The notes: generated by a model not told the origin, from the sequence alone. Shown: positions 1 to 22,489, counted from the stretch's first letter. The stretch is 24,996 bases of DNA from a virus (IMGVR_UViG_3300045988_118627), one strand, 5' to 3'. Translations and numbers: made by a program.

Positions 1-805
1 TTTCCATCACGGATAAAAATTGAAAATAGCAGTCTGTGAAGAAATTGAACCCATCAAGCGCCATGATCTCTTCGTAAAGCTCTTTACTGATAGGGATGCT
101 TCTGTTTTTCTTCCCCTTCGTTCTGACAAAGGTAATTCGGTATTTGGTCACCTGTGAGCGGGTAAGATTTACGGCTTCACGCCAGCGTGCGCCTGTGCTT
201 AAGCATATCTTAACTACCAGTGCCAGAATTGGGTCCTGACGTTTGCAATCAGCCAGCAATTCAACAATCTGCTCATGGGTAAGCCATGCCATCTCTTTTT
301 CTGCGATGGTGAATTTTCGCATGTTCTCCAGTGGGTTCGGATACGACCATTCGCCCAGACGGGATAGTTCGCTAAAAACACTACTTAGATAGCTTTGCTC
401 CAGGTTAATGGTGACCGGGCTTGCTCCTTTCTTCCATTTCTCGCTGAAGTAGATCTCGCCTGTCAGGCGTTTATCTCGATAGTGGGCAAACATTTTAGAG
501 GTGAGATCGGTTGCAAGAGGATTGCCCAGAGCGTCAACCATCAACAGCAATTTGTCATAGACATGCTGCCCAGCTGTCAGAGATTTACCATGGAGTTTGA
601 ACCATAGCTCAACCACGTCTTTCAGTGTTCGACGATCCACTGATTCACCCAGCCAGGGCTTTGCTTCGGTTTCTTCCATCGTGTGGCGCTCAAAAGCCAG
701 TGCTTCGCCTTTGGTGGCGAATTGTTTACGCACACGACGCCCACTTCGTCCGGCGGGGTAACATTCGCAAAGCCATTTCCCAGTGGTGAGTTTTCGTACT
801 GCCAT
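1..805 (-). CDS. int: Tyrosine integrase, P2/186 family (partial; C-terminal catalytic region lies beyond the window start)
   Basis: Reverse-strand ORF from ATG at 805 reads MAVRKLTTGKWLCECYPAGRSGRRVRKQF... and later ...ICLSTGARWREAVNLTRSQVTKYRITFVRTKGKKNRSIPIS, which matches the P2 Int box I region (LSTGARW...VTFVKTK...) as recalled. No stop before the window edge. Confidence 0.85.
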   Translation of the reverse strand, partial: MAVRKLTTGKWLCECYPAGRSGRRVRKQFATKGEALAFERHTMEETEAKPWLGESVDRRTLKDVVELWFKLHGKSLTAGQHVYDKLLLMVDALGNPLATDLTSKMFAHYRDKRLTGEIYFSEKWKKGASPVTINLEQSYLSSVFSELSRLGEWSYPNPLENMRKFTIAEKEMAWLTHEQIVELLADCKRQDPILALVVKICLSTGARWREAVNLTRSQVTKYRITFVRTKGKKNRSIPISKELYEEIMALDGFNFFTDCYFQFLSVME

Positions 806-993
806 AAAAAATGCCCTCCAGTAGAGAGCATTTTTACTGTATGTATAACCAGTGTCAATGTATGAAATCCTACGACCATACATCTCACTGAAGCCATAAT
901 GAAGTTGGCTATTCTTTTTGCTATGTGAGCATGTAACTTTTGCGGTTAACCTGCGGCTCATTTTTATTTTAGACGCAGATATAAAAGCAAAAG

Positions 994-1185
994 TTATCGT
1001 GAGTTTTTAGTACAGATTTTTTTGGATTTACTAATAGTTCCATCATTGCAAACAAATTTTCCATCGGAGGTACAGTGAGAGACACCTCCCTTTTTCCCAG
1101 AACAAGGATAATTTTTAGCATAGGTAGTTAGTGGGCTTAATAACAAAGAGCATGATAAAACCACAAAAAATACTTTACCAAGCAT
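994..1185 (-). CDS. Small secreted cysteine-rich protein (63 aa, N-terminal signal peptide), unknown function
   Basis: [26 protein letters not shown]... has a hydrophobic signal-like N-terminus and a mature part with 5 Cys. GGAGG RBS sits 5 nt upstream. It lies 15 nt downstream of the cI stop on the same strand, so it is probably co-transcribed with cI and int. Confidence 0.5.
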
Positions 1186-1200
1186 AGTTTCCTCCCGGTA

Positions 1201-1776
1201 TTATCTAACATATTTAACTGTTAAACTTATAATTTTACCAATTATTTCAATGTCTTCTATCTTACATTCGAAGGCTCTGTTTCCACCCTCGACGAAGATT
1301 CTTCCACCGGGTAAACGAGTAATGTCACGGATCGTTACTTCGCCATCAATACTTATTACCCATTTACCATCACGTATGTCATCAAATTCTTTATCACAAA
1401 TAAATTCAGAATTGTTATCTGTGATGACAAAAGGTTTTTTAAACGTAGAGGGTAGAAATCCCTTATCAAAAATATAAAAACCGTCTTCACGCAAGGCACC
1501 ATCAGATAATACATATTTAGCAACTTCCATAGTATTTGTATTACCTGAAGTTTGCTTTGAACCATGTCCGGTTGTGAGCCAATTAAGCGAGGTGCCCGTT
1601 TCAAGGGCGCACTGGATTACCCATTCTGCTGGGAATGAGTCACGCATGTAGCGTGTGGCGAGTGTACTTTTAGAGATTCCTAAATGATCGCACAACGCCT
1701 GTCGAGTCTTGAATCCATAAGCTTCTACCATGCGCTCTATGGCGCCTCGTCCGCCTTTCTCCAAATTCATGGTCAC
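1201..1776 (-). CDS. cI: Immunity repressor CI (phage 186 CI-like, HTH plus C-terminal domain)
   Basis: 191-aa ORF ...VEAYGFKTRQALCDHLGISKSTLATRYMR...CALETGTSLNWLTTGHG...RLPGGRIFVEGGNRAFECKIEDIEIIG resembles 186 CI as recalled (EAYGF..., CALETGANLQWLLTGEG, KLPGRKLHVAGGKVPFECGIDDI). It is divergent from the apl/cII operon. Confidence 0.85.
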   Translation of the reverse strand: MTMNLEKGGRGAIERMVEAYGFKTRQALCDHLGISKSTLATRYMRDSFPAEWVIQCALETGTSLNWLTTGHGSKQTSGNTNTMEVAKYVLSDGALREDGFYIFDKGFLPSTFKKPFVITDNNSEFICDKEFDDIRDGKWVISIDGEVTIRDITRLPGGRIFVEGGNRAFECKIEDIEIIGKIISLTVKYVR

Positions 1777-2149: not shown

Positions 2150-2659
2150 ATGTTTGATTACCAAGTTTCCAAACATCCACATTTTGATGAAGCCTGTCGT
2201 GCATTTGCACTGCGCCACAATCTGGTGCAACTGGCAGAACGTGCAGGCATGAATGTGCAGATTCTGCGGAACAAGCTGAACCCAGCTCAGCCTCATTTAT
2301 TAACCGCACCAGAAATCTGGCTGCTTACCGATCTGACTGAAGATTCAACGCTGGTAGATGGTTTTCTGGCACAGATTCATTGTCTGCCATGTGTACCGAT
2401 TAATGAGGTGGCAAAAGAGAAACTGCCACATTACGTCATGAGTGCAACCGCAGAGATCGGGCGTGTTGCTGCAGGTGCGGTGTCTGGCGATGTAAAAACC
2501 TGTGCCGGTCGTCGTGATGCTATCAGCAGCATTAACTCTGTAACACGACTGATGGCGCTGGCTGCTGTTTCATTGCAGGCCCGTTTACAGGCTAATCCTG
2601 CGATGGCGAGTGCAGTTGATACCGTGACTGGCCTCGGTGCTTCATTCGGTTTGCTGTGA
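2150..2659 (+). CDS. cII: CII-like lysogeny establishment regulator (186 CII family)
   Basis: From ATG 2150: [49 protein letters not shown]...[25 protein letters not shown]... resembles 186 CII as recalled. The track ORF start at 2144 is a TTG; the ATG at 2150 with an AGAGG RBS is preferred. Confidence 0.85.
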
Positions 2660-2666
2660 GGTGCTT

Positions 2667-2963
2667 ATGCTGACGAAAGAACCATCATTTGCATCGCTGC
2701 TGGTAAAACAAAGCCCGGCAATGCACTACGGTCACGGCTGGATCACGGGTGAGGATGGAAAACGCTGGCATCCATGTCATTCACAAGATGAATTGCTGTC
2801 TGAATTGACCACGAGGAAACGGAGAAAGTCCAAATGTATGCGGCAGAAAGTGAAGTGGTTTATCAGTTTCGTTACAGAGGGGAGAGTTATTCAGTACCTG
2901 AAGATGATTTGCTCTGTTGCTATCCGTCATTGTCGGGAGATGGCAGTTACTTTTTCACGTTAA
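2667..2963 (+). CDS. fil: Fil-like small early protein (possible host filamentation/cell-division inhibitor); 3' end uncertain
   Basis: ORF from ATG 2667 (GAGGTG RBS) reads MLTKEPSFASLLVKQSPAMHYGHGWITGEDGKRWHPC..., in the position of 186 fil directly after cII. The C-terminal third looks low-complexity and overlaps a better-looking ORF in another frame. Confidence 0.45.
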   Translation: MLTKEPSFASLLVKQSPAMHYGHGWITGEDGKRWHPCHSQDELLSELTTRKRRKSKCMRQKVKWFISFVTEGRVIQYLKMICSVAIRHCREMAVTFSR

Positions 2964-3723: not shown

Positions 3724-3950
3724 TGGCTGATGCAATGGATCTCGTACAGCAGCGCGTTGAAGAAGAACGCCAGCGTCATATCCATGCTGCCCGTGCCAAA
3801 ACGCCGGGCGTGTCCCGCGTGCTTTGCATTGAGTGTGAAGCGCCAATTCCGCCAGCACGCCGCCGTGCCATTCCGGGTGTGCAGCTTTGCATTACCTGTC
3901 AGGAAATCGCAGAGCTGAAAGGCAAACATTACAACGGAGGTGCTGTATGA
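3723..3950 (+). CDS. DksA/TraR-family C4 zinc-finger protein
   Basis: CIECEAPIPPARRRAIPGVQLCITCQE is a CxxC-N17-CxxC arrangement typical of TraR/DksA-type zinc fingers found in P2-like early operons. Its stop overlaps the dam start (ATGA). Confidence 0.7.
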   Translation: MADAMDLVQQRVEEERQRHIHAARAKTPGVSRVLCIECEAPIPPARRRAIPGVQLCITCQEIAELKGKHYNGGAV

Positions 3951-4804
3951 GCACCATCCTGAAATGGGCGGGAAATAAAACCGCCATTATGTCCGAACTG
4001 AAAAAGCATCTTCCTGCTGGCCCGCGACTGGTTGAACCTTTCGCGGGTTCCTGTGCAGTGATGATGGAGACGGAGTACCCCAGCTATCTTGTTGCGGATA
4101 TTAATCCTGATTTAATCAACCTCTATAAAAAGGTTGCTGCTGATTGTGAATCGTTTATATCTCGCGCCAGAGTTTTATTTGAGATCGCAAACAGGGAGGT
4201 GGCTTATTACAACATAAGGCAGGAGTTTAATTACTCAACTGAAATTACTGATTTCATGAAAGCGGTATATTTCCTGTATCTCAATCGTCACGGTTACCGT
4301 GGTTTATGTCGCTATAACAAGAGCGGGCATTTCAACATTCCCTACGGTAATTATAAAAATCCGTATTTCCCTGAAAAAGAAATTCGCGCATTTGCAGAAA
4401 AAGCCCAGCGAGCAACGTTTATCTGCGCCAGCTTTGATGAAACGCTGGCGATGTTGAAGGCGGGGGATGTGGTGTATTGCGATCCGCCGTATGACGGTAC
4501 GTTTTCCGGCTATCACACTGATGGTTTCACTGAAGATGACCAGTATCACCTGGCATCCGTTCTTGAACATCGGTCATCAGAAGGACATCCGGTCATTGTT
4601 TCTAACAGTGATACATCCCTGATCCGTTCGCTGTATCGCAATTTTACTCACCACTATATCAAGGTAAAACGCAGCATCGGTGTGGCAGCTGGCGAGGGTA
4701 AATCAGCAACAGAAATCATTGCTGTTTCCGGGCCGCGCTGCTGGGTGGGATTTGATTATTCGCGTGGCGTGGATAGTTCTGCCGTGTACGGAGTACGTGC
4801 ATGA
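3947..4804 (+). CDS. dam: DNA adenine methyltransferase (Dam-like, orphan N6-adenine MTase)
   Basis: From ATG 3947 (GGAGG RBS): [23 protein letters not shown]...VEPFAGS...[26 protein letters not shown]...VVYCDPPY, close to E. coli Dam motifs including DPPY. The track start at 3887 is rejected as a 5' extension. Confidence 0.88.
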
Positions 4805-8032: not shown

Positions 8033-8839
8033 TTATTTAGAAAGGTACTTATCTCTAAGTTGATTCAGTCTGTCAGCATCGCGTTCTGAAAACTCGGCGT
8101 CACCATAGATCGATTTCCCATCTGCGTCTTCAAGGCCAATGACTGTGACGGTAAATATAGCATCAGCCGGAACTTTAAGTTTTCCCCAATCAGAGTATCT
8201 ATTAGGGGCTAATTTCCAGTTGGCTTTCTCACCTGGTTCCAGACCTCCAGAAATTTTATAGTTGAAGACGTCAGAGAACCAAGGGACGCTTCTTCCTGGG
8301 CTGGCAATAACTCCTTTGAAGAATACTCTGGCAACCGCTTTGTCTGTTCCGTTTTCAACGCTAATATCCAGAATTGGCTGATCATTGCCGTAATCCTCTT
8401 TCTGGAAATAAAAACGGGAACGTTCGACCTTGAAGGCTTTCATTTTTTCCGCAGCCTGTGTTGCAGAGGTTTGTTTGGCTTCCAGTTCTTTTATTTCTTG
8501 CAGAGCCTGTTCTTTCTCTCTCTTCTCACGCTCAAGGCGAATAGTTTGTGCGTAATTTATAACCTCATCACCAGTTTTACCTTCCAACGCTGACTTAATT
8601 TTTGTTTCGTAGACGTCCCCAGAAGACGTTCCAGCCTGCATTAGCTCTCTCATGTTGATTTGGCTAAAGGCAACGACTTTAACTGCATCATCAAACTGAG
8701 CTTTTTTATCTGCAGGTAAGGACTCTCTTACTTTTTGAATGGACTCTTTCATCGACTGATCGCTTGATGCATCGATCTTCGGTTTGTCACAAGCAGTAAG
8801 CAGCAGAGCAAAAGCAATTACGCCAGTTAATTTCTTCAT
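8033..8839 (-). CDS. Lipoprotein with a central coiled-coil region (268 aa), unknown function
   Basis: From ATG at 8839: MKKLTGVIAFALLLTACDKPK... (lipobox LLTAC) followed by a charged helical segment (EREKREKEQALQEIKELEAKQ). The longer track ORF from 8911 is rejected as a 5' extension. Confidence 0.6.
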   Translation of the reverse strand: MKKLTGVIAFALLLTACDKPKIDASSDQSMKESIQKVRESLPADKKAQFDDAVKVVAFSQINMRELMQAGTSSGDVYETKIKSALEGKTGDEVINYAQTIRLEREKREKEQALQEIKELEAKQTSATQAAEKMKAFKVERSRFYFQKEDYGNDQPILDISVENGTDKAVARVFFKGVIASPGRSVPWFSDVFNYKISGGLEPGEKANWKLAPNRYSDWGKLKVPADAIFTVTVIGLEDADGKSIYGDAEFSERDADRLNQLRDKYLSK

Positions 8840-9361
8840 ATCCCTATCCCAATCGTAAAAAAACAAGGCTAATCCTAACAGGATTAGCGGGCATGACAAA
8901 CTCATAGCCATATAGGTGTGCTGTATAAATTAGCGGGATGAGAAAGCCTGCACAGACCCTCATGTTGAAACTTGATTTTAGCTCAAAAGAGCTGACACTA
9001 AATAACTGCGCGGAATAATGCTCCACTTTCGGTTAGCCCTTGGCCCTTGCTGGGTAAGGCGTGGGGCCGTTTTCTTCGCCTGATCCTGCTGTATCTGGCC
9101 TACAGTATGTTGTCCTTACGCGACATGCCACATGTCAGTAAACGGCAGGTGTAGCAGTATTAGACGCAGCTATTTAGTGTGTATTAAGCTGGCTCATATT
9201 TATGACTGGTTTCAAGGTTTGACCGATTTTCATGTCATGCATGTCTATGCTGCATGAGTTCGCATGATCGTTTGAGGATCGGTTTGGCTAAGACATGCCA
9301 GAACTGGCGGGCTTTTGCTCATGTCATGCAGGTGCATGAAAACTACTACATAAAGCGGGCA

Positions 9362-9532: not shown

Positions 9533-10447
9533 ATGCCATACCAATTGGTAGAGCTTAGCCCCGTAGCTAACGATCTTGAACAGTTAGGAACCAAAGAGAA
9601 GTTTTGGTTCTATTTCTCCGATGACACTGTAAATTTGCAGTTGTTTAAGTACTCTAGGCCAGGTACTGGCGAGCATTGGTCTGAAAAGTGTGCTGCTGAG
9701 TTATGTCATTTGCTTAACATTCCACATGCTAGCTATGATTTGGCGCGATACAATGGTCGATTCGGTGTGGTGACTCAGAATATCATTCCATCTGGTTTCC
9801 GGATGGTAATGGGAAATGAAGTGCTTCACAGTTCGACATTCGATTATCCTGGGCCTTTACAAGCCGGGGAAAAGCCGGTAAGGGTCAGAGAACACACTGT
9901 CACAAGGGTCTTGGGTTGTTTAGATAGGGAATCTATCAAGCCTCCTCCGAGTGTATATGATCTAACCGGGCTAAATGCAGCAGATGTATTTTGTGGATAT
10001 TTGATGCTCGATGCACTTGTGAGTAATCAAGATCGCCACCATGAAAATTGGGCAATCATGCTTAACAATGAAACTGGTGAGCAGTTTTTGTGTCCAACAT
10101 ACGATCATGCCGCTAGTTTAGGAAGGGAGATGTTAGATGATGAGCGTAACGAACGGCTTAATACTAAAGATAAAAATCGACAAATCCCATGTTTTGTAAG
10201 AAAAGCTCGCTCTGAGCTATTCAAAGCAAAAACTGATAAAAAGCCCTTGCTGACTGTTGAAGCATTTCAACATGCAGTTGAAGGGAGAGTTGCCGCTCGC
10301 GACCATTGGTTAGGTAAGTTGAGCGTTTTAACAGAAGATTCCATTACAGATGTGTTTAACCAAGTGCCTTCATCGTGTATATCCGACAGTGCACGTAGAT
10401 TTGCAACGTTAATGGTAATGGAAAATCGCAGAAGGTTACTAGAATGA
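9533..10447 (+). CDS. HipA-like Ser/Thr kinase core (HipT-like, lacking the HipA N-terminal subdomain); candidate toxin/effector
   Basis: 304-aa ORF with LGTKEKFWF (resembles the HipA GxQEK ATP-binding motif), ALVSNQDRHHENWAIML (catalytic-loop-like D-x-H-x-x-N) and CPTYDHAAS (resembles the HipA aPxYD metal-binding motif). Its stop overlaps the next gene's start (ATGA). Confidence 0.65.
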   Translation: MPYQLVELSPVANDLEQLGTKEKFWFYFSDDTVNLQLFKYSRPGTGEHWSEKCAAELCHLLNIPHASYDLARYNGRFGVVTQNIIPSGFRMVMGNEVLHSSTFDYPGPLQAGEKPVRVREHTVTRVLGCLDRESIKPPPSVYDLTGLNAADVFCGYLMLDALVSNQDRHHENWAIMLNNETGEQFLCPTYDHAASLGREMLDDERNERLNTKDKNRQIPCFVRKARSELFKAKTDKKPLLTVEAFQHAVEGRVAARDHWLGKLSVLTEDSITDVFNQVPSSCISDSARRFATLMVMENRRRLLE

Positions 10448-11184
10448 CTAATACAAACTCCGTTTACGTCGCATGGCAGGCACCAGATACCAGAGACTGG
10501 CATGTTGTTGGTAACTTGCAAGAGCGCAAATCGGGGTATGTTTTCAGGTATACCAAAGGTGCTCTTAAATCTTCTAAATTTACAAAGTTTAGCGGCATGA
10601 GTGATGTTCGTGAAACTTATGTATCGGAAGAATTGTTTCCTCTTTTTAAAAATCGCCTTTTATCACCGAGACGTCCAGAGTATCCGAGTTTCATTAAATG
10701 GCTTGGATTTGAAGAAGATAAGGTAAATCCTATCGATATTCTTGCTCGCTCGGGAGGCTTACGAAGCACTGATCAGCTGCAGATTTTCAAAAAAATTGAT
10801 TTTGATTCTGATGGTAACTTTGAGCATTTTTTCTTCTTACATGGACTTGGTTACTTGAATAGCTTAGCTAATGCTCGTGTATCTGAATTGAAACCGGGGC
10901 AAATTTTGCGTCTTTGCTTGGATCTTCAAAATGAATACGATGGGGATGCTGTTGTCGTTCGTGCAGATAAACCAGCTGAAATCGTTGGTTACTGCCCTAG
11001 GTATTTAAGTAATGACATCAAGAAGATGTTATTGGATGATCCAAAATCAATCACTTTAACGGTCGAAAAGATTAGCGATGATGCTCCTCATAACTATCGG
11101 TTATTATGTAAATTATCAGGGGTACTAAGCCAAGCCTGTCAATCGACGCTGATTCCTCAAGATGAGTTTGAACCTATTGAGTAA
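10444..11184 (+). CDS. Fusion protein: HipA N-terminal-subdomain-like (HipS-like) region plus C-terminal HIRAN-like domain
   Basis: N-terminal part ...EELFPLFKNRLLSPRRPEYPSFIKWLGFEEDKVNPIDILARSGGLRSTDQLQIF resembles the HipA N-domain (FNFFDNLLPEG...LARRLGL...LLGRDCAGAL, from memory). C-terminal part ...LRLCLDLQNEYDGDAVVVRADKPAEIVGYCPRYLSNDIKKML fits the HIRAN consensus (L.L.rEpdNpyDpnAi.V...G.lGYvPr). Confidence 0.6.
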   Translation: MTNTNSVYVAWQAPDTRDWHVVGNLQERKSGYVFRYTKGALKSSKFTKFSGMSDVRETYVSEELFPLFKNRLLSPRRPEYPSFIKWLGFEEDKVNPIDILARSGGLRSTDQLQIFKKIDFDSDGNFEHFFFLHGLGYLNSLANARVSELKPGQILRLCLDLQNEYDGDAVVVRADKPAEIVGYCPRYLSNDIKKMLLDDPKSITLTVEKISDDAPHNYRLLCKLSGVLSQACQSTLIPQDEFEPIE

Positions 11185-19984: not shown

Positions 19985-20011
19985 GCCCAGTGGCGATCTG
20001 GGCTTTATTTT
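19985..20011 (+). terminator. Intrinsic terminator after S
   Basis: GCCCAG-TGGCGAT-CTGGGC followed by TTTATTTT; a GC-rich hairpin inside an otherwise AT-rich island, overlapping the stop of the minus-strand KAP NTPase gene. Confidence 0.5.
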
Positions 20012-21878
20012 AATTTTCAATGCTTTGCTTTAATTTATCTATTGCGGGAGTTAAACAATCATTTATGAGCTCATCGATTTGTAATGATAATATATTTGAG
20101 TTTATTTGAGTTTTCTTTTCAATTAGCTTTCTAATTAGCTCACGGTGGAAAAAACGCTCTGCAGAAAGCTCTTTTAGATAAGGGGATTTGTTGTATCGGT
20201 TTTTTATAGCATAGCCAAAGAAATGCATCTCGGTTGAGTCTACCAGTATTTTTGTTAGTTGTTCAGCATCACCAAAATAAAGAACTGGTTTGTCGTGAAA
20301 TGAATAAATATCTTTGTTGTTGAAATTTAGATGTGCGTAATATTCATGATTTCCGGACTGTATTAATTTGAATATCTTTTGAGCGTCTTGGCTAAGTTGA
20401 TATGCAATTAACACATTTTTCTTTTGTTCTATGTAATTAACAAGCTCCTTGAATTCCCTAGTTTCTTTGCAATGAAAAGTTAATCCTCCCCATCGCTCAT
20501 CCTTAATGTCTTCATCAAAAATTTCATAACTAGTTTGTATCATTCCTTTTTCTGCTAAAATATCAACAGCAGAGTAGGCTAAGTTTGTTAAATAGTGTTC
20601 GTTGATGGGTTTTATATGTTCTCTGGATAAATGAAGTAATAATCCGTAAATATGCTTAAGAACATGCTCGTTCAATATTTCAAAATTAATAAGCGTATGA
20701 AGTGTTGAATTGTAATTTTCCTCAAATTCTGTGTATTTTAATCGATCATAATTCCAAAGTTGTGTCCATGGCTCAATTGTTTTATTAGAAACACTGACAA
20801 ATGTTATTAATTCAGATATTATTTTTTCTTGATTGATTTTCTGATTGTCAATTATATCGATCCAGGTATCCTCGTCTAAGATTAAATTTGACAAATAAGT
20901 TGTACCATATTTTTCAATTAAATTGGATGTGTATTTATTATCATCATCTATTTTATATGTTAACAAGTCAGAAACGGTTCGTTTTATTTTATTAGATTCA
21001 AAATAGAGTATAAAATGTAATTGATATAATCTGAGTGTCAAATCTGAATTTTGCTGAAACTGTGCTGGTAATATTTTGAATATTCTTTCAAAAAAAGAAA
21101 TTTGCCTTTCAATTAATCTAATGTTATTACACTCTGAAAGAGTGAGTAAGCTCTCAATATTTTTTATGTTCAGAATGGTGTTGAGTTCGCTAGTTATATT
21201 TTTTAGAAAATATTCGTAGGCGTGAGAATGTTGAGGTTGATATTTGAAAGTTATACCTATAACTTTTTCTTTTGCATCTAAATAAATACCATCATGATTT
21301 TTATTTCTAGCGGGGTTTAATATTTCTCTCTCATTGGCGATAATCAAAACCTTGCATTCTTTTTCTTCAACGAAATTATTTATATAACCAAATATAGAAT
21401 TCCAATCTAATTCGCAGCGTTCAAGATCATCAAATATCAATATGGTGTTTTCTGGTGAGTAGTAAAAGTCTTTAATACTTACGTTGGGTAGTTCTGGGGA
21501 GCCCTCTACACTTGTAACGAATGAATCACTTAAATCAATCTTAAGTGTGCCTTTAATTAGTGCCTTAGTTAGTGTGCCAGCAAGCAACATGCCTTTAGAT
21601 GAAAGGAAGGGATGCATTTGCTTGAAAATTATTTCGTCAATTTGTTCGGTGGATTTTATTCCATATAATGAGATCATTAATGGCTTAACTTCCCCTTTTA
21701 GTGATTCTTCATTCATTAATTTACGGACAAACCATGTTTTCCCGCTTCCCCATTCGCCGTCAATCATTACTGCGAAATTAGGGGATTTTTCAAGATCCAC
21801 TAAATAATTAAGATATGAGGTTAGCTCTTCATTGTAATTCATTGGATTGTAAGATCCTTCATACAATTTGAAAATCAC
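20010..21878 (-). CDS. KAP-family P-loop NTPase (candidate anti-phage/abortive-infection cargo)
   Basis: 622-aa ORF with Walker A MIDGEWGSGKTWF and Walker B ILIFDDLERC, the GxWGxGKT and hhhhDDLDR/ER motifs of KAP NTPases. It is very AT-rich, on the strand opposite the late genes. Start is GTG at 21878 or ATG at 21842. Confidence 0.8.
   Translation of the reverse strand: MIFKLYEGSYNPMNYNEELTSYLNYLVDLEKSPNFAVMIDGEWGSGKTWFVRKLMNEESLKGEVKPLMISLYGIKSTEQIDEIIFKQMHPFLSSKGMLLAGTLTKALIKGTLKIDLSDSFVTSVEGSPELPNVSIKDFYYSPENTILIFDDLERCELDWNSIFGYINNFVEEKECKVLIIANEREILNPARNKNHDGIYLDAKEKVIGITFKYQPQHSHAYEYFLKNITSELNTILNIKNIESLLTLSECNNIRLIERQISFFERIFKILPAQFQQNSDLTLRLYQLHFILYFESNKIKRTVSDLLTYKIDDDNKYTSNLIEKYGTTYLSNLILDEDTWIDIIDNQKINQEKIISELITFVSVSNKTIEPWTQLWNYDRLKYTEFEENYNSTLHTLINFEILNEHVLKHIYGLLLHLSREHIKPINEHYLTNLAYSAVDILAEKGMIQTSYEIFDEDIKDERWGGLTFHCKETREFKELVNYIEQKKNVLIAYQLSQDAQKIFKLIQSGNHEYYAHLNFNNKDIYSFHDKPVLYFGDAEQLTKILVDSTEMHFFGYAIKNRYNKSPYLKELSAERFFHRELIRKLIEKKTQINSNILSLQIDELINDCLTPAIDKLKQSIEN
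21848..21865. promoter_or_regulatory. Candidate late-promoter activator dyad TGT-N12-ACA upstream of V (pV-like)
   Basis: TGTaagatccttcatACA sits about 50 bp upstream of the V start codon, at the right edge of the AT-rich island and overlapping the 5' end of the KAP NTPase ORF. Confidence 0.35.
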
Positions 21879-21910
21879 TATTTTCTTTTGATTTCATGCA
21901 AACTGCAACC

Positions 21911-22489
21911 ATGAACGCACAACTCACAGAAATCATGCGCCTTATCACCAACCTGATCCGCACAGGTGTAGTCACCGAAGTGGACCGGGAAAACTGGCTT
22001 TGTCGGGTGAAAACGGGCGACCTTGAAACCAACTGGATTAACTGGCTGACGCTGCGCGCGGGTAATGCCCGCACATGGTGGCGACCATCGGAAGGTGAGC
22101 AGGTGGTGCTGCTGAGTCTGGGCGGCAATCTGGAAACCGCCTTTGCGCTGCCCGCTGTCTATTCGAATCAGTTCGCACCACCGTCGGCGTCGATGGACGC
22201 CTGTGTGACAGAACATCCTGACGGTGGCTGGTTTGAATACGAACCCGCTACCGGGCGCTGGTATGTCAGGGGAATCAAATCCATGGTCATTGAAGCTGCC
22301 GACAACATCACCCTGAAAACCAGTGAGTTTGTGCTGGAGGCCGACCGCACGCGTATTAACAGCGAAATGGTAATCAATGGTGGCGTTACCCAGGGCGGCG
22401 GTGCAATGAGTTCTAACGGAATTGTGGTTGATGCACATCAGCATACTGGCGTCCTGAAAGGCGGCGACACAACCGGAGGCCCGGTATGA
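21911..22489 (+). CDS. V: Baseplate assembly/spike protein V (P2 gpV family)
   Basis: From ATG 21911: MNAQLTEIMRLITNLIRTGVVTEVDRENWLCRVKTGDLETNWINWLT...SSNGIVVDAHQHTG resembles P2 gpV as recalled. The track start at 21896 is 5 codons upstream. Confidence 0.85.
   Translation: MNAQLTEIMRLITNLIRTGVVTEVDRENWLCRVKTGDLETNWINWLTLRAGNARTWWRPSEGEQVVLLSLGGNLETAFALPAVYSNQFAPPSASMDACVTEHPDGGWFEYEPATGRWYVRGIKSMVIEAADNITLKTSEFVLEADRTRINSEMVINGGVTQGGGAMSSNGIVVDAHQHTGVLKGGDTTGGPV

What the first reader, a model, noticed from the sequence alone, without database searches (positions are those of the whole stretch)
994..1185. Small secreted cysteine-rich protein apparently co-transcribed with cI in the lysogenic operon
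Seen in sequence: a 63-aa ORF with a signal-peptide-like N-terminus and five cysteines in the mature part starts 15 nt after the cI stop on the same strand, with a strong GGAGG RBS, and lies between cI and int. Genes in the cI-int transcript are expressed in the lysogen, so this is a candidate lysogenic-conversion or exclusion factor, such as a periplasmic peptide.
Basis: partly seen in the sequence, partly recalled or inferred. Interest (0 to 1): 0.5.

Follow-up and report, generated by a model that had tools for sequence, protein, structure and literature searches.

The report
Prophage YdcA-family secreted miniprotein behind cI
A real, well-conserved 63-codon gene sits directly behind the repressor gene of a 186-like E. 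coli prophage; it encodes a small exported, cysteine-paired, strongly basic protein of the uncharacterised YdcA family, an ordinary kind of prophage cargo gene whose function is still unknown.

Summary
The ORF at 994-1185 (-) is real. It starts 15 nt after the cI stop, with GGAGG 5 nt upstream of its ATG. One detail is wrong: four cysteines lie in the mature part and the fifth is in the leader.

It belongs to the YdcA family (NCBIfam NF007463 above cutoff, Pfam PF27300, phrog_6000): a variable signal peptide followed by a near-invariant ~40-aa basic, four-Cys core. Selection is strongly purifying (dN/dS 0.03-0.07; 19 of 22 variable sites at third codon positions).

Phage 186 has no gene here, because its cI and int overlap. 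Relatives fill the same slot with other cargo (a KAP NTPase, a DUF4041 protein, K139 glo). About 12% of complete E. coli genomes, including BL21, carry this gene. Haemophilus phage HP2 has an unannotated copy whose ATG overlaps the end of cI.

Co-transcription with cI and periplasmic location are well supported but inferred. An exclusion or host-fitness role is untested. The gene matches no PADLOC defence model. It is a new member of a known kind, of moderate interest.

The parts
994..1185 (-). YdcA-family gene: 63 codons plus a TAA stop at 996-994
   Evidence: ORF list; NF007463 115.3 bits against cutoff 93; phrog_6000 9.2e-34; PGAP name 'YdcA family protein' in identical E. coli loci; PF27300 on the cluster representative
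1117..1185 (-). Codons 1-23: predicted Sec signal peptide (MLGK / [12 protein letters not shown] / SPLTTYA), with predicted cleavage after Ala23
   Evidence: Hydropathy profile; Ala23 invariant while the rest of the leader varies freely; leader dN about 1 against mature dN 0.1-0.3 in distant pairs; K-12 YdcA is described as having a signal sequence and being predicted periplasmic (PMC11340327). Inferred, since SignalP was not run
997..1116 (-). Codons 24-63: mature ~40-aa peptide, pI 9.6, nine K+R against two D+E, four conserved Cys (C28, C38, C46, C58)
   Evidence: dN/dS 0.03-0.07; AF2 mature-only model pLDDT 79.7, 87-88 in the core, a small beta-hairpin unit; top PDB match is Dis2, 7muc_AN, TM 0.60
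1191..1195 (-). Shine-Dalgarno GGAGG, 5 nt upstream of the ATG
   Evidence: Read directly from the minus strand
1186..1200 (-). 15-nt cI-to-ORF gap with no terminator-like or promoter-like site
1201..1776 (-). 186-type cI repressor gene, the upstream gene of the same leftward operon. RefSeq annotates the homolog as 570 nt, which would put the start at 1770
   Evidence: PF07022 2.8e-33 plus PF16452 5.4e-29; phrog_4; BL21 annotation
806..993 (-). 188-nt non-coding spacer between the ORF and int; unusually structured RNA; more variable than the ORF and carries indels
   Evidence: z = -5.78; 25% variable columns in 993-864 against 7-14% in the ORF; no Rfam family
807..835 (-). 13-bp hairpin AAAAAUGCUCUCU-ACU-GGAGGGCAUUUUU. 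It contains the int RBS, ends in a run of U, and stops 1 nt before the int ATG
   Evidence: dG -17.5 kcal/mol, z -5.4; variable sites are mostly pairing-compatible
830..858 (-). Promoter-like site TTGACA-17-AAAAAT directly upstream of int
   Evidence: 10 of 12 consensus matches; a consensus match only
1..805 (-). int (tyrosine integrase), N-terminal 268 codons; runs off the window
   Evidence: Open frame; annotated 'phage integrase' in identical E. coli loci

Best explanation
This is a moron, meaning a cargo gene not needed for phage growth, inserted at the cI/int junction of a 186-like prophage. It is transcribed as part of the leftward lysogenic operon, so it is made whenever cI is made: in the lysogen from pL and during establishment from pE. 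Its product is exported by Sec and cut by signal peptidase I after Ala23. In the periplasm it folds into a ~40-residue, strongly basic miniprotein held by two disulfides (four conserved Cys). It belongs to the YdcA family, and its core resembles one lobe of Legionella Dis2, a disulfide-pinned subunit that sits just under the outer membrane and docks on lipoproteins. I infer that it works alone, as a small binding module for a conserved envelope component near the outer membrane. The benefit to the prophage would then come through the host envelope, either as better stress tolerance for the host or as a block on incoming phage. Shown here: gene reality, family membership, purifying selection, operon position, variability of the slot, and recurrence behind repressor genes. 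Inferred: export and cleavage, disulfides, co-transcription, the Dis2-like fold, and the binding-module mechanism. Not determined: the biological pay-off.
For: Gene and family. Secreted-protein pattern, with a free-varying leader, invariant Ala at -1 and 19 invariant core columns. Selection: dN/dS 0.03-0.07 on the mature part; 19 of 22 variable sites at codon position 3. Operon position: 15-nt gap with a strong RBS and no terminator or promoter between cI and the ORF. In HP2 the homolog's ATG overlaps the end of cI. A second lineage with a different leader follows a different-immunity cI, and Yersinia prophages show the same cI-YdcA-int order. Insertion: phage 186 has cI and int overlapping with nothing between them; the block is low-GC, 0.32-0.37; other cargo occupies the same slot; the hotspot is described in the literature. 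Works alone: no conserved neighbour across 66 species. Dis2 link: PDB profile E = 1e-4; phmmer with the mature peptide E = 2.2e-4; a Dis2 homolog carries a precomputed PF27300 assignment; hhalign P = 1.1e-4; 0 of 5,000 shuffles reach the real scores and both lobes align; Foldseek top hit with TM 0.60 and probability 0.80; tandem-domain family members exist. Dis2 biology: PMC8486379 and PMC12716638. K-12 YdcA is predicted periplasmic, and its deletion sensitises E. coli W to 3-hydroxypropionate.
Confidence: 0.65

Rival explanations
1. Superinfection-exclusion factor. The periplasmic miniprotein blocks a step after adsorption, such as tail penetration or DNA transit through the envelope, for incoming phages. 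This would parallel the soluble periplasmic Glo protein that phage K139 encodes in the same PL-cI-...-int operon.
For: Same operon slot and same predicted compartment as Glo. The slot carries defence-type cargo in relatives: a KAP NTPase, a DUF4041 protein, and the K139-like hotspot. [quoted passage not shown] The gene is expressed with the repressor, which is when exclusion is useful.
Against: It is not homologous to Glo (hhalign probability 7%, with only the leader aligned). It has no PADLOC match. The mature core is nearly invariant across alpha-, beta- and gamma-proteobacteria and also occurs as a chromosomal housekeeping-type gene, which is unlike typical fast-evolving, phage-specific exclusion proteins. 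No phenotype data exist.
Confidence: 0.3
2. Host-fitness (lysogenic conversion) factor. It is an extra, lysogeny-expressed dose of YdcA activity that improves envelope robustness, for example under acid or organic-acid stress, and so benefits the lysogen rather than acting on other phages.
For: The prophage and chromosomal mature domains are close relatives. E. coli W delta-ydcA is sensitive to 300 mM 3-hydroxypropionate, and ydcA is reported as YdcI-controlled and acid-induced (PMC7642389). Very strong purifying selection implies a conserved host target. The gene is frequent in gut and extra-intestinal E. coli.
Against: The 3-HP phenotype comes from a single study, was overridden by delta-yieP, and has no mechanism. 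Redundancy with the chromosomal copy makes the added benefit unclear. Nothing has been tested for the prophage copy.
Confidence: 0.3
3. Accessory subunit or modulator of a type IV secretion or conjugation machine, acting as a true functional equivalent of Dis2, as the UniRef name 'Conjugal transfer protein' would suggest.
For: Sequence and fold resemblance to Dis2 of the Dot/Icm outer-membrane cap. The UniRef name is attached to the exact protein.
Against: Only 58 of 72,556 plasmids carry a family member, and the two contexts examined hold no transfer genes. The genomic neighbours are prophage or housekeeping genes, not T4SS genes. E. coli hosts of this prophage need carry no type IVB system. 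The name has no traceable evidence behind it.
Confidence: 0.05
4. A periplasmic protease inhibitor, suggested by weak resemblance to plant Pin-II (potato type II) inhibitor repeats.
For: The pattern C.G.KG......DG.FVC.........K.C aligns with Pin-II domains at E = 0.06-0.4.
Against: None of these matches is significant. Pin-II domains have eight cysteines and a different disulfide framework. The matches disappear with the mature-only profile. There is no fold support.
Confidence: 0.03
5. A hitch-hiking or untranslated ORF, or a lipoprotein or spanin-type lysis protein that has been mis-read.
For: The gene is small and lies in AT-rich DNA. A Cys at position 12 follows V-L-S.
Against: The frame is under strong purifying selection and the family is conserved across phyla. 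C12 is too close to the N-terminus, follows K4 within six residues, and is absent from most homologs, so it is not a lipobox. The gene lies in the lysogenic operon, not the lysis cassette.
Confidence: 0.03

Closest known systems
E. coli K-12 YdcA (b1419) and the YdcA family (Pfam PF27300; NCBIfam NF007463 / PRK10040)
   Same: Same architecture, a signal peptide plus a ~35-40-aa core PCSGxKGG[VI]xxC...F[VI]CxDGxxSxSKxxC with four Cys. The ORF scores above the curated NCBIfam cutoff, and PGAP already names identical copies 'YdcA family protein'.
   Different: This copy is prophage-borne and wired behind cI instead of lying at the chromosomal cybB-ydcA locus. It has a different leader and a KNSR tail. 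The family's function is unknown, so membership does not supply a mechanism.
Legionella pneumophila Dis2 (Lpg0823; PDB 7MUC/7MUD chain AN), a Dot/Icm T4SS outer-membrane-cap subunit
   Same: Both have a cleaved leader and a small disulfide-rich beta unit. Both share the motif C-S-x-x-GG-[IV]-x-x-C-x4-5-G-x-[FL]-V-C-N-[DN]-G-x-x-S. Dis2 is the top PDB match to the AF2 model, and a Dis2 homolog carries a PF27300 assignment.
Glo of Vibrio cholerae phage K139
   Same: A small soluble periplasmic protein encoded between cI and int in the PL lysogenic operon of a P2-related phage. It is annotated and cited as involved in phage exclusion.
   Different: There is no sequence relationship beyond the leader. 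Glo is 137 aa and not cysteine-rich. Glo's exclusion role has experimental backing; this protein's role has none.
Repressor-operon morons and P2-type cargo hotspots (for example lambda rexAB behind cI, and the P2/P4 defence hotspots)
   Same: Cargo is inserted where it is expressed from the prophage in the lysogen. The slot is variable between related prophages, and this same prophage carries PADLOC candidate systems in the two canonical P2 hotspots. The lambda rexAB comparison rests on general knowledge.
   Different: This cargo is a 63-aa exported peptide with no recognisable defence domain and no PADLOC match.

Membership tests
YdcA family (NCBIfam NF007463 / Pfam PF27300) | Whole-protein score above the curated family cutoff | tested here: met
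   NF007463: 115.3 bits against a cutoff of 93, E = 7.7e-34. PF27300 is precomputed on the 95%-identical cluster representative and on the P0010 lineage. The local Pfam copy lacks this model.
YdcA family (NCBIfam NF007463 / Pfam PF27300) | Conserved core with four cysteines and the PCSGxKGG ... FxCxDG ... SxSK..C motif | tested here: met
   P27, C28, S29, G30, K31, K32, G33, G34, V35, C38, F44, C46, D48, G49, S52, S54, K55 and C58 are invariant in 22 sequences.
YdcA family (NCBIfam NF007463 / Pfam PF27300) | N-terminal Sec signal peptide with a signal peptidase I site | tested here: inconclusive
   The n/h/c regions and T-Y-A before K24 are present, and Ala at -1 is invariant. K-12 YdcA is predicted periplasmic. 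No SignalP run or experiment was available.
Dis2-like lobe (Lpg0823 of the Dot/Icm outer-membrane cap) | Sequence similarity beyond chance to the Dis2 lobes | tested here: inconclusive
   For: E = 1e-4 and 2.2e-4 against the PDB, hhalign P = 1.1e-4, 0 of 5,000 shuffles reach the real scores, and PF27300 on a Dis2 homolog. Against: the mature-only profile gives E = 0.79, and Dis2-type proteins are absent from the top 150 of the exhaustive search.
Dis2-like lobe (Lpg0823 of the Dot/Icm outer-membrane cap) | Same fold | tested here: inconclusive
Dis2-like lobe (Lpg0823 of the Dot/Icm outer-membrane cap) | Two lobes pinned by five disulfides, as a subunit of a type IVB secretion system | tested here: not met
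   This protein has a single domain with four Cys. No T4SS genes lie nearby here or in the plasmid copies examined. Two- and three-domain members do exist elsewhere in the family.
Glo-type periplasmic superinfection-exclusion proteins (phage K139) | Encoded between cI and int in the PL operon | tested here: met
   Window layout compared with the K139 record.
Glo-type periplasmic superinfection-exclusion proteins (phage K139) | Homology to Glo | tested here: not met
   hhalign probability 7%, with only 12 leader residues aligned.
Glo-type periplasmic superinfection-exclusion proteins (phage K139) | Exclusion phenotype | not testable with these tools
   Requires plaque and adsorption assays.
Known or candidate anti-phage defence systems (PADLOC-DB 2.0) | Match to a defence-protein model | tested here: not met
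   0 families at E <= 1e-3. Other genes of the same prophage match PDC-M03A/B and PDC-S49.
Bacterial lipoproteins / o-spanins | A lipobox [LVI][ASTVI][GAS]C after an uncharged stretch, with a conserved Cys at +1 | tested here: not met
   V-L-S-C12 has Leu at -2, K4 lies within the preceding stretch, and C12 is absent from most homologs. The gene is not in the lysis cassette.

The most novel reading that the evidence does not exclude
YdcA-family miniproteins are free-standing single lobes of the Dis2 type. On this reading they are a widespread class of disulfide-locked periplasmic adaptors that dock on conserved outer-membrane lipoprotein assemblies, for example OmpA/Pal-like domains such as the one in DotK. 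Temperate phages would have recruited them repeatedly behind their repressor genes to alter the envelope of the lysogen, giving a generic, receptor-independent barrier to incoming phage or conjugative DNA. That would give a first function to YdcA and Dis2 together.
Probability: 0.12. Interest if true: 0.65.

Novelty: new member of a known kind. Interest (0 to 1): 0.35.

Why it matters
Small exported proteins expressed from prophage repressor operons are a classic source of lysogenic conversion and exclusion, yet they are easily missed. The copy in Haemophilus phage HP2 is still unannotated. This gene is in about one in eight complete E. coli genomes, including BL21, ATCC 8739 and HS, so it is easy to study. 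Its family is extremely conserved and has no known function. The tentative link to Dis2 gives both proteins a structural context and points to a testable idea, that the protein binds a conserved component under the outer membrane. If it did exclude phages or harden the envelope, it would add a very small, domain-free protein type to the prophage cargo repertoire that defence-finder tools currently miss.

Tried and rejected
- **Local Pfam:** no hit for the ORF, because the copy lacks PF27300.
- **lpg1681 family hit (E = 0.09):** rejected. lpg1681 is a 105-aa protein with two TM helices linked to dsbD2, and the match covers the leader.
- **Pin-II protease-inhibitor resemblance (E = 0.06-0.4):** rejected as non-significant, and it is lost with the mature-only profile.
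- **Conserved partner gene:** neighbour clustering and bulk Pfam scans over 66 species found none. The close-set downstream genes in Moraxella, Acinetobacter and HP2 are lineage-specific and unrelated to each other.
- **T4SS or conjugation context:** only 58 of 72,556 plasmids carry the family, and the two contexts examined had no transfer genes.
- **Homology to K139 Glo:** none.
- **PADLOC:** no match.
- **Rfam on the structured spacer:** nothing meaningful; the best was Phe_leader at E = 0.64, 22 bits against a gathering score of 55.
- **Nesper et al. 1999 (PMC93736):** not held, so Glo's properties are cited through PMC3952083 and the K139 GenBank record.
- **Literature on expression of the prophage copy:** none found.

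Full report
**Observation.** The minus strand carries a 63-codon ORF at 994-1185. It encodes [63 protein letters not shown]. The upstream gene at 1201-1776 is a 186-type cI (PF07022 2.8e-33 and PF16452 5.4e-29). Across the divergent promoter region lie Cox/Apl-like and CII-like genes. The cI stop is at 1203-1201, the intergenic gap is exactly 15 nt, and GGAGG (1195-1191) lies 5 nt before the ATG. int begins at 805 and runs off the window. One detail is wrong: only four cysteines (C28, C38, C46, C58) are in the predicted mature part. The fifth, C12, is in the hydrophobic leader and is not conserved.

**It is a real gene.** The protein scores 115.3 bits on NCBIfam NF007463 against a curated cutoff of 93, and 9.2e-34 on phrog_6000. 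Identical copies in RefSeq E. coli chromosomes are annotated 'phage repressor protein CI | YdcA family protein | phage integrase'. The protein database assigns the cluster to Pfam PF27300, named YdcA. Among 40 distinct close haplotypes, 19 of 22 variable sites in the ORF are third codon positions, whereas the downstream spacer varies more and has indels. Against moderately diverged relatives, dN/dS of the mature part is 0.03-0.07.

**Anatomy of the protein.** Across 22 homologs from many genera the first ~23 residues vary freely but stay hydrophobic, and they end in an invariant Ala. After that, 18 further columns are invariant, including P-C-S-G-K-K-G-G-V and all four cysteines. This is the usual signature of a Sec-exported protein cut by signal peptidase I. 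In this copy the leader has K4, a hydrophobic stretch at residues 5-16, P18, and T-Y-A before K24. C12 is not a lipobox cysteine: it lies too near the N-terminus, has Leu at -2, and is absent from most homologs. The predicted mature peptide has 40 residues, pI 9.6, nine K+R against two D+E, and four Cys. E. coli K-12 YdcA (57 aa) is described as having a signal sequence and being predicted periplasmic, with unknown function (PMC11340327). Its sequence turns up among the chromosomal loci I fetched. I could not run SignalP, so export and cleavage are inferred.

**Genomic context: an insertion in a variable slot.**
- In phage 186, cI and int overlap by one base and nothing lies between them.
- Here a ~395-bp segment of 32-37% GC occupies that junction, against 45-53% in the flanks.
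- Relatives fill the slot differently: a 349-aa hypothetical protein in Klebsiella phage 4LV2017, a 558-aa DUF4041 protein in E. coli UTME-13, and a YdcA-family gene plus a KAP-family P-loop NTPase in MS20659 and in a second prophage lineage with a different cI and a different leader.
[quoted passage not shown] - This same prophage carries PADLOC candidate systems in the two canonical P2 hotspots.
- The ORF is present at full length in 628 of 5,426 complete E. coli genomes, including BL21, ATCC 8739, HS and APEC O18. The exact protein has been seen on at least 1,000 contigs.

**Link to repressor genes.** No promoter-like or terminator-like site lies between cI and the ORF, so transcripts that cover cI must continue into it. 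By analogy with phage 186, the leftward operon is driven by pL in the lysogen and by pE during establishment. Haemophilus phage HP2, a distant P2 relative, has an unannotated 60-aa family member whose ATG overlaps the end of cI. Three Yersinia species show the order cI, YdcA, int. Other loci have different HTH or S24-type repressor-like genes upstream. Expression with the repressor is therefore a recurrent arrangement, but I found no direct transcript data.

**No partner gene.** I took one genome per species (66 loci) and scanned the flanking genes against Pfam in bulk. Upstream there were 3 Phage_CI_repr, 3 HTH_3, at least 1 S24, 1 Mu Gam, 3 cytochrome b561 (the chromosomal cybB-ydcA locus) and otherwise unrelated genes. 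Downstream there were 3 integrases, scattered phage tail, GemA and DUF1367 genes, and housekeeping genes. Close-set downstream genes in Moraxella, Acinetobacter and HP2 are lineage-specific and unrelated to one another. The protein therefore most likely acts alone. The family has 327 representative clusters at whole-library significance, including forms with two or three tandem domains and forms with a second C-terminal Cys motif or long K/A-rich tails.

**Structural lead: Dis2.**
- AF2 models give a small beta-hairpin unit. The full-length model has pLDDT 73. The mature-only model has pLDDT 79.7, rising to 87-88 in the core.
- The top PDB match for both models is chain AN of 7MUC/7MUD. With the mature-only model the TM-score is 0.60 normalised to the query, probability 0.80, 38% identity, and the next hit has probability 0.15.
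- That chain is Dis2 (Lpg0823) of the Legionella Dot/Icm outer-membrane cap. [quoted passage not shown] It contacts DotK, DotC and DotD, is called Legionella-specific, and is dispensable apart from subtle translocation effects (PMC12716638).
- Sequence tests in favour: the family profile against the PDB gives E = 1e-4. The mature peptide alone gives E = 2.2e-4, summed over both lobes. A Dis2 homolog found with a Dis2 fragment carries a precomputed PF27300 assignment. hhalign gives P = 1.1e-4. Mature-domain HMMs score 18.6-21.1 bits on Dis2 homologs, whereas 5,000 composition-preserving shuffles never exceed 10.7 with profile A2 or 12.9 with profile A5, and both lobes align to the same core. 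A KMGGI/CNNG two-domain subfamily gives the same result.
- I put homology at roughly 70-75%. This protein is a single lobe and is not a T4SS component: no transfer genes lie near family members in the contexts I examined, so the UniRef label 'Conjugal transfer protein' is unsupported.

**Mechanism.** The best-supported reading is a cargo gene made together with cI. Its product is exported, processed, disulfide-bonded and strongly basic, and it acts alone as a small binding module near the outer membrane. Its target is probably a conserved host component, because the core barely changes from Rhizobium and Brucella to E. coli. What the prophage gains is open, and two readings are about equally likely.
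- **Exclusion.** K139 encodes the soluble periplasmic exclusion protein Glo in the same operon slot (PMC3952083; K139 record), and the slot holds defence-type cargo elsewhere. However, Glo is unrelated in sequence, the ORF has no PADLOC match, and its conservation is unlike that of typical exclusion factors.
- **Host fitness.** Deleting chromosomal ydcA sensitises E. coli W to 3-hydroxypropionate, and ydcA is reported as acid-induced under YdcI control (PMC7642389). That is a single, mechanistically unexplained observation.

**The 'cI-int transcript'.** The 188-nt spacer after the ORF folds unusually well (z = -5.8). Its last element is a 13-bp hairpin (dG -17.5 kcal/mol, z -5.4). The hairpin contains the int RBS, ends in a U-run, and stops one base before the int ATG. 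A TTGACA-17-AAAAAT site overlaps its 5' side. The 84 bp around it are 96% identical to the int-proximal region of Klebsiella phage 4LV2017. int may therefore be attenuated or separately controlled. The YdcA-family ORF lies upstream of all this and is unaffected.

**Verdict.** It is a new member of a known kind, namely prophage cargo from a known but uncharacterised family. Interest is moderate. The added value lies in the recurrent repressor linkage, the unannotated HP2 copy and the tentative YdcA-Dis2 connection.

Noticed in passing
window 807-858 (-): A 13-bp hairpin (807-835; dG -17.5 kcal/mol, z -5.4) contains the int RBS GGAGGG, ends in a U-run, and stops 1 nt before the int ATG. A promoter-like TTGACA-17-AAAAAT site (858-830) overlaps it, and transcripts from that site would start inside the 5' arm. 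This suggests int is attenuated or masked on read-through transcripts and may have its own promoter. The block 780-863 is 96% identical to the int-proximal region of Klebsiella phage 4LV2017.
   Followed up: partly
window 925-1000 (-); window 940-956 (+): A long imperfect hairpin (dG -20.5 kcal/mol, z -4.0) starts right after the ORF stop but has no U-tract on the minus strand. The same palindrome reads as a terminator-like site on the plus strand (TTGCGGTTAACCTGCGG followed by a T-run).
   Followed up: partly
window 9533-11184 (+): Two adjacent genes match the PADLOC candidate defence system PDC-M03 (A: 2.1e-122; B: 6.8e-93). They lie in the gap between gpA and the portal gene, the main published P2 defence hotspot. 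A 292-aa minus-strand ORF at 8033-8911 in the same gap has no PADLOC match.
   Followed up: partly
window 20010-22444 (-): A 622-aa minus-strand ORF inside the plus-strand late genes matches the PADLOC candidate PDC-S49 (6.5e-135). The adjoining 188-aa ORF (21878-22444) has no match. This looks like the tail-region cargo hotspot described for P2.
   Followed up: partly
L001 2920-3102 (Haemophilus phage HP2, NC_003315.1, about 2486-2668, minus strand): An unannotated 60-aa YdcA-family ORF whose ATG overlaps the end of cI. It is followed 10 nt later by orf1(S), which itself begins with a signal-peptide-like sequence. Phage S2 has the same match.
   Followed up: partly
window 1201-1500 (-): The low-GC block (0.32-0.37) extends from the spacer and the YdcA-family ORF into the C-terminal half of cI. 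This suggests that the 3' part of cI and the cargo gene travel together as a mosaic module. MS20659 shares cI plus the ORF at about 90% identity but has different cargo after them.
   Followed up: partly
L040, L058, L059 (Providencia); L043, L049, L052, L054, L064, L068, L077-L079 and others: Other family architectures exist: a second C-terminal Cys motif CxCRxGxxCTGPRGGxYC...SGxKSY in beta-proteobacteria and Rhizobium; 190-250-aa forms with long K/A/E-rich repeats in Providencia; and forms with two or three tandem domains (P0080-P0085).
   Followed up: partly
window 3887-4804 (+): A 305-aa ORF with a DPPY motif lies just upstream of the replication gene gpA. The corresponding gene in related prophages hits PF02086 (MethyltransfD12), so it is probably a Dam-type adenine methyltransferase. 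Phage 186 has different non-essential genes at this position.
   Followed up: no
L173-L176 6186-6884; L002 3126-3578; L179 840-1574; L046 1685-2329: In Moraxella and Acinetobacter the ydcA-like gene is followed within about 10-25 nt by a lineage-specific gene with no Pfam hit on record (in Moraxella, an N-terminal TM segment plus a charged coiled-coil-like region). These could be local partners, but they are not conserved across the family.
   Followed up: partly
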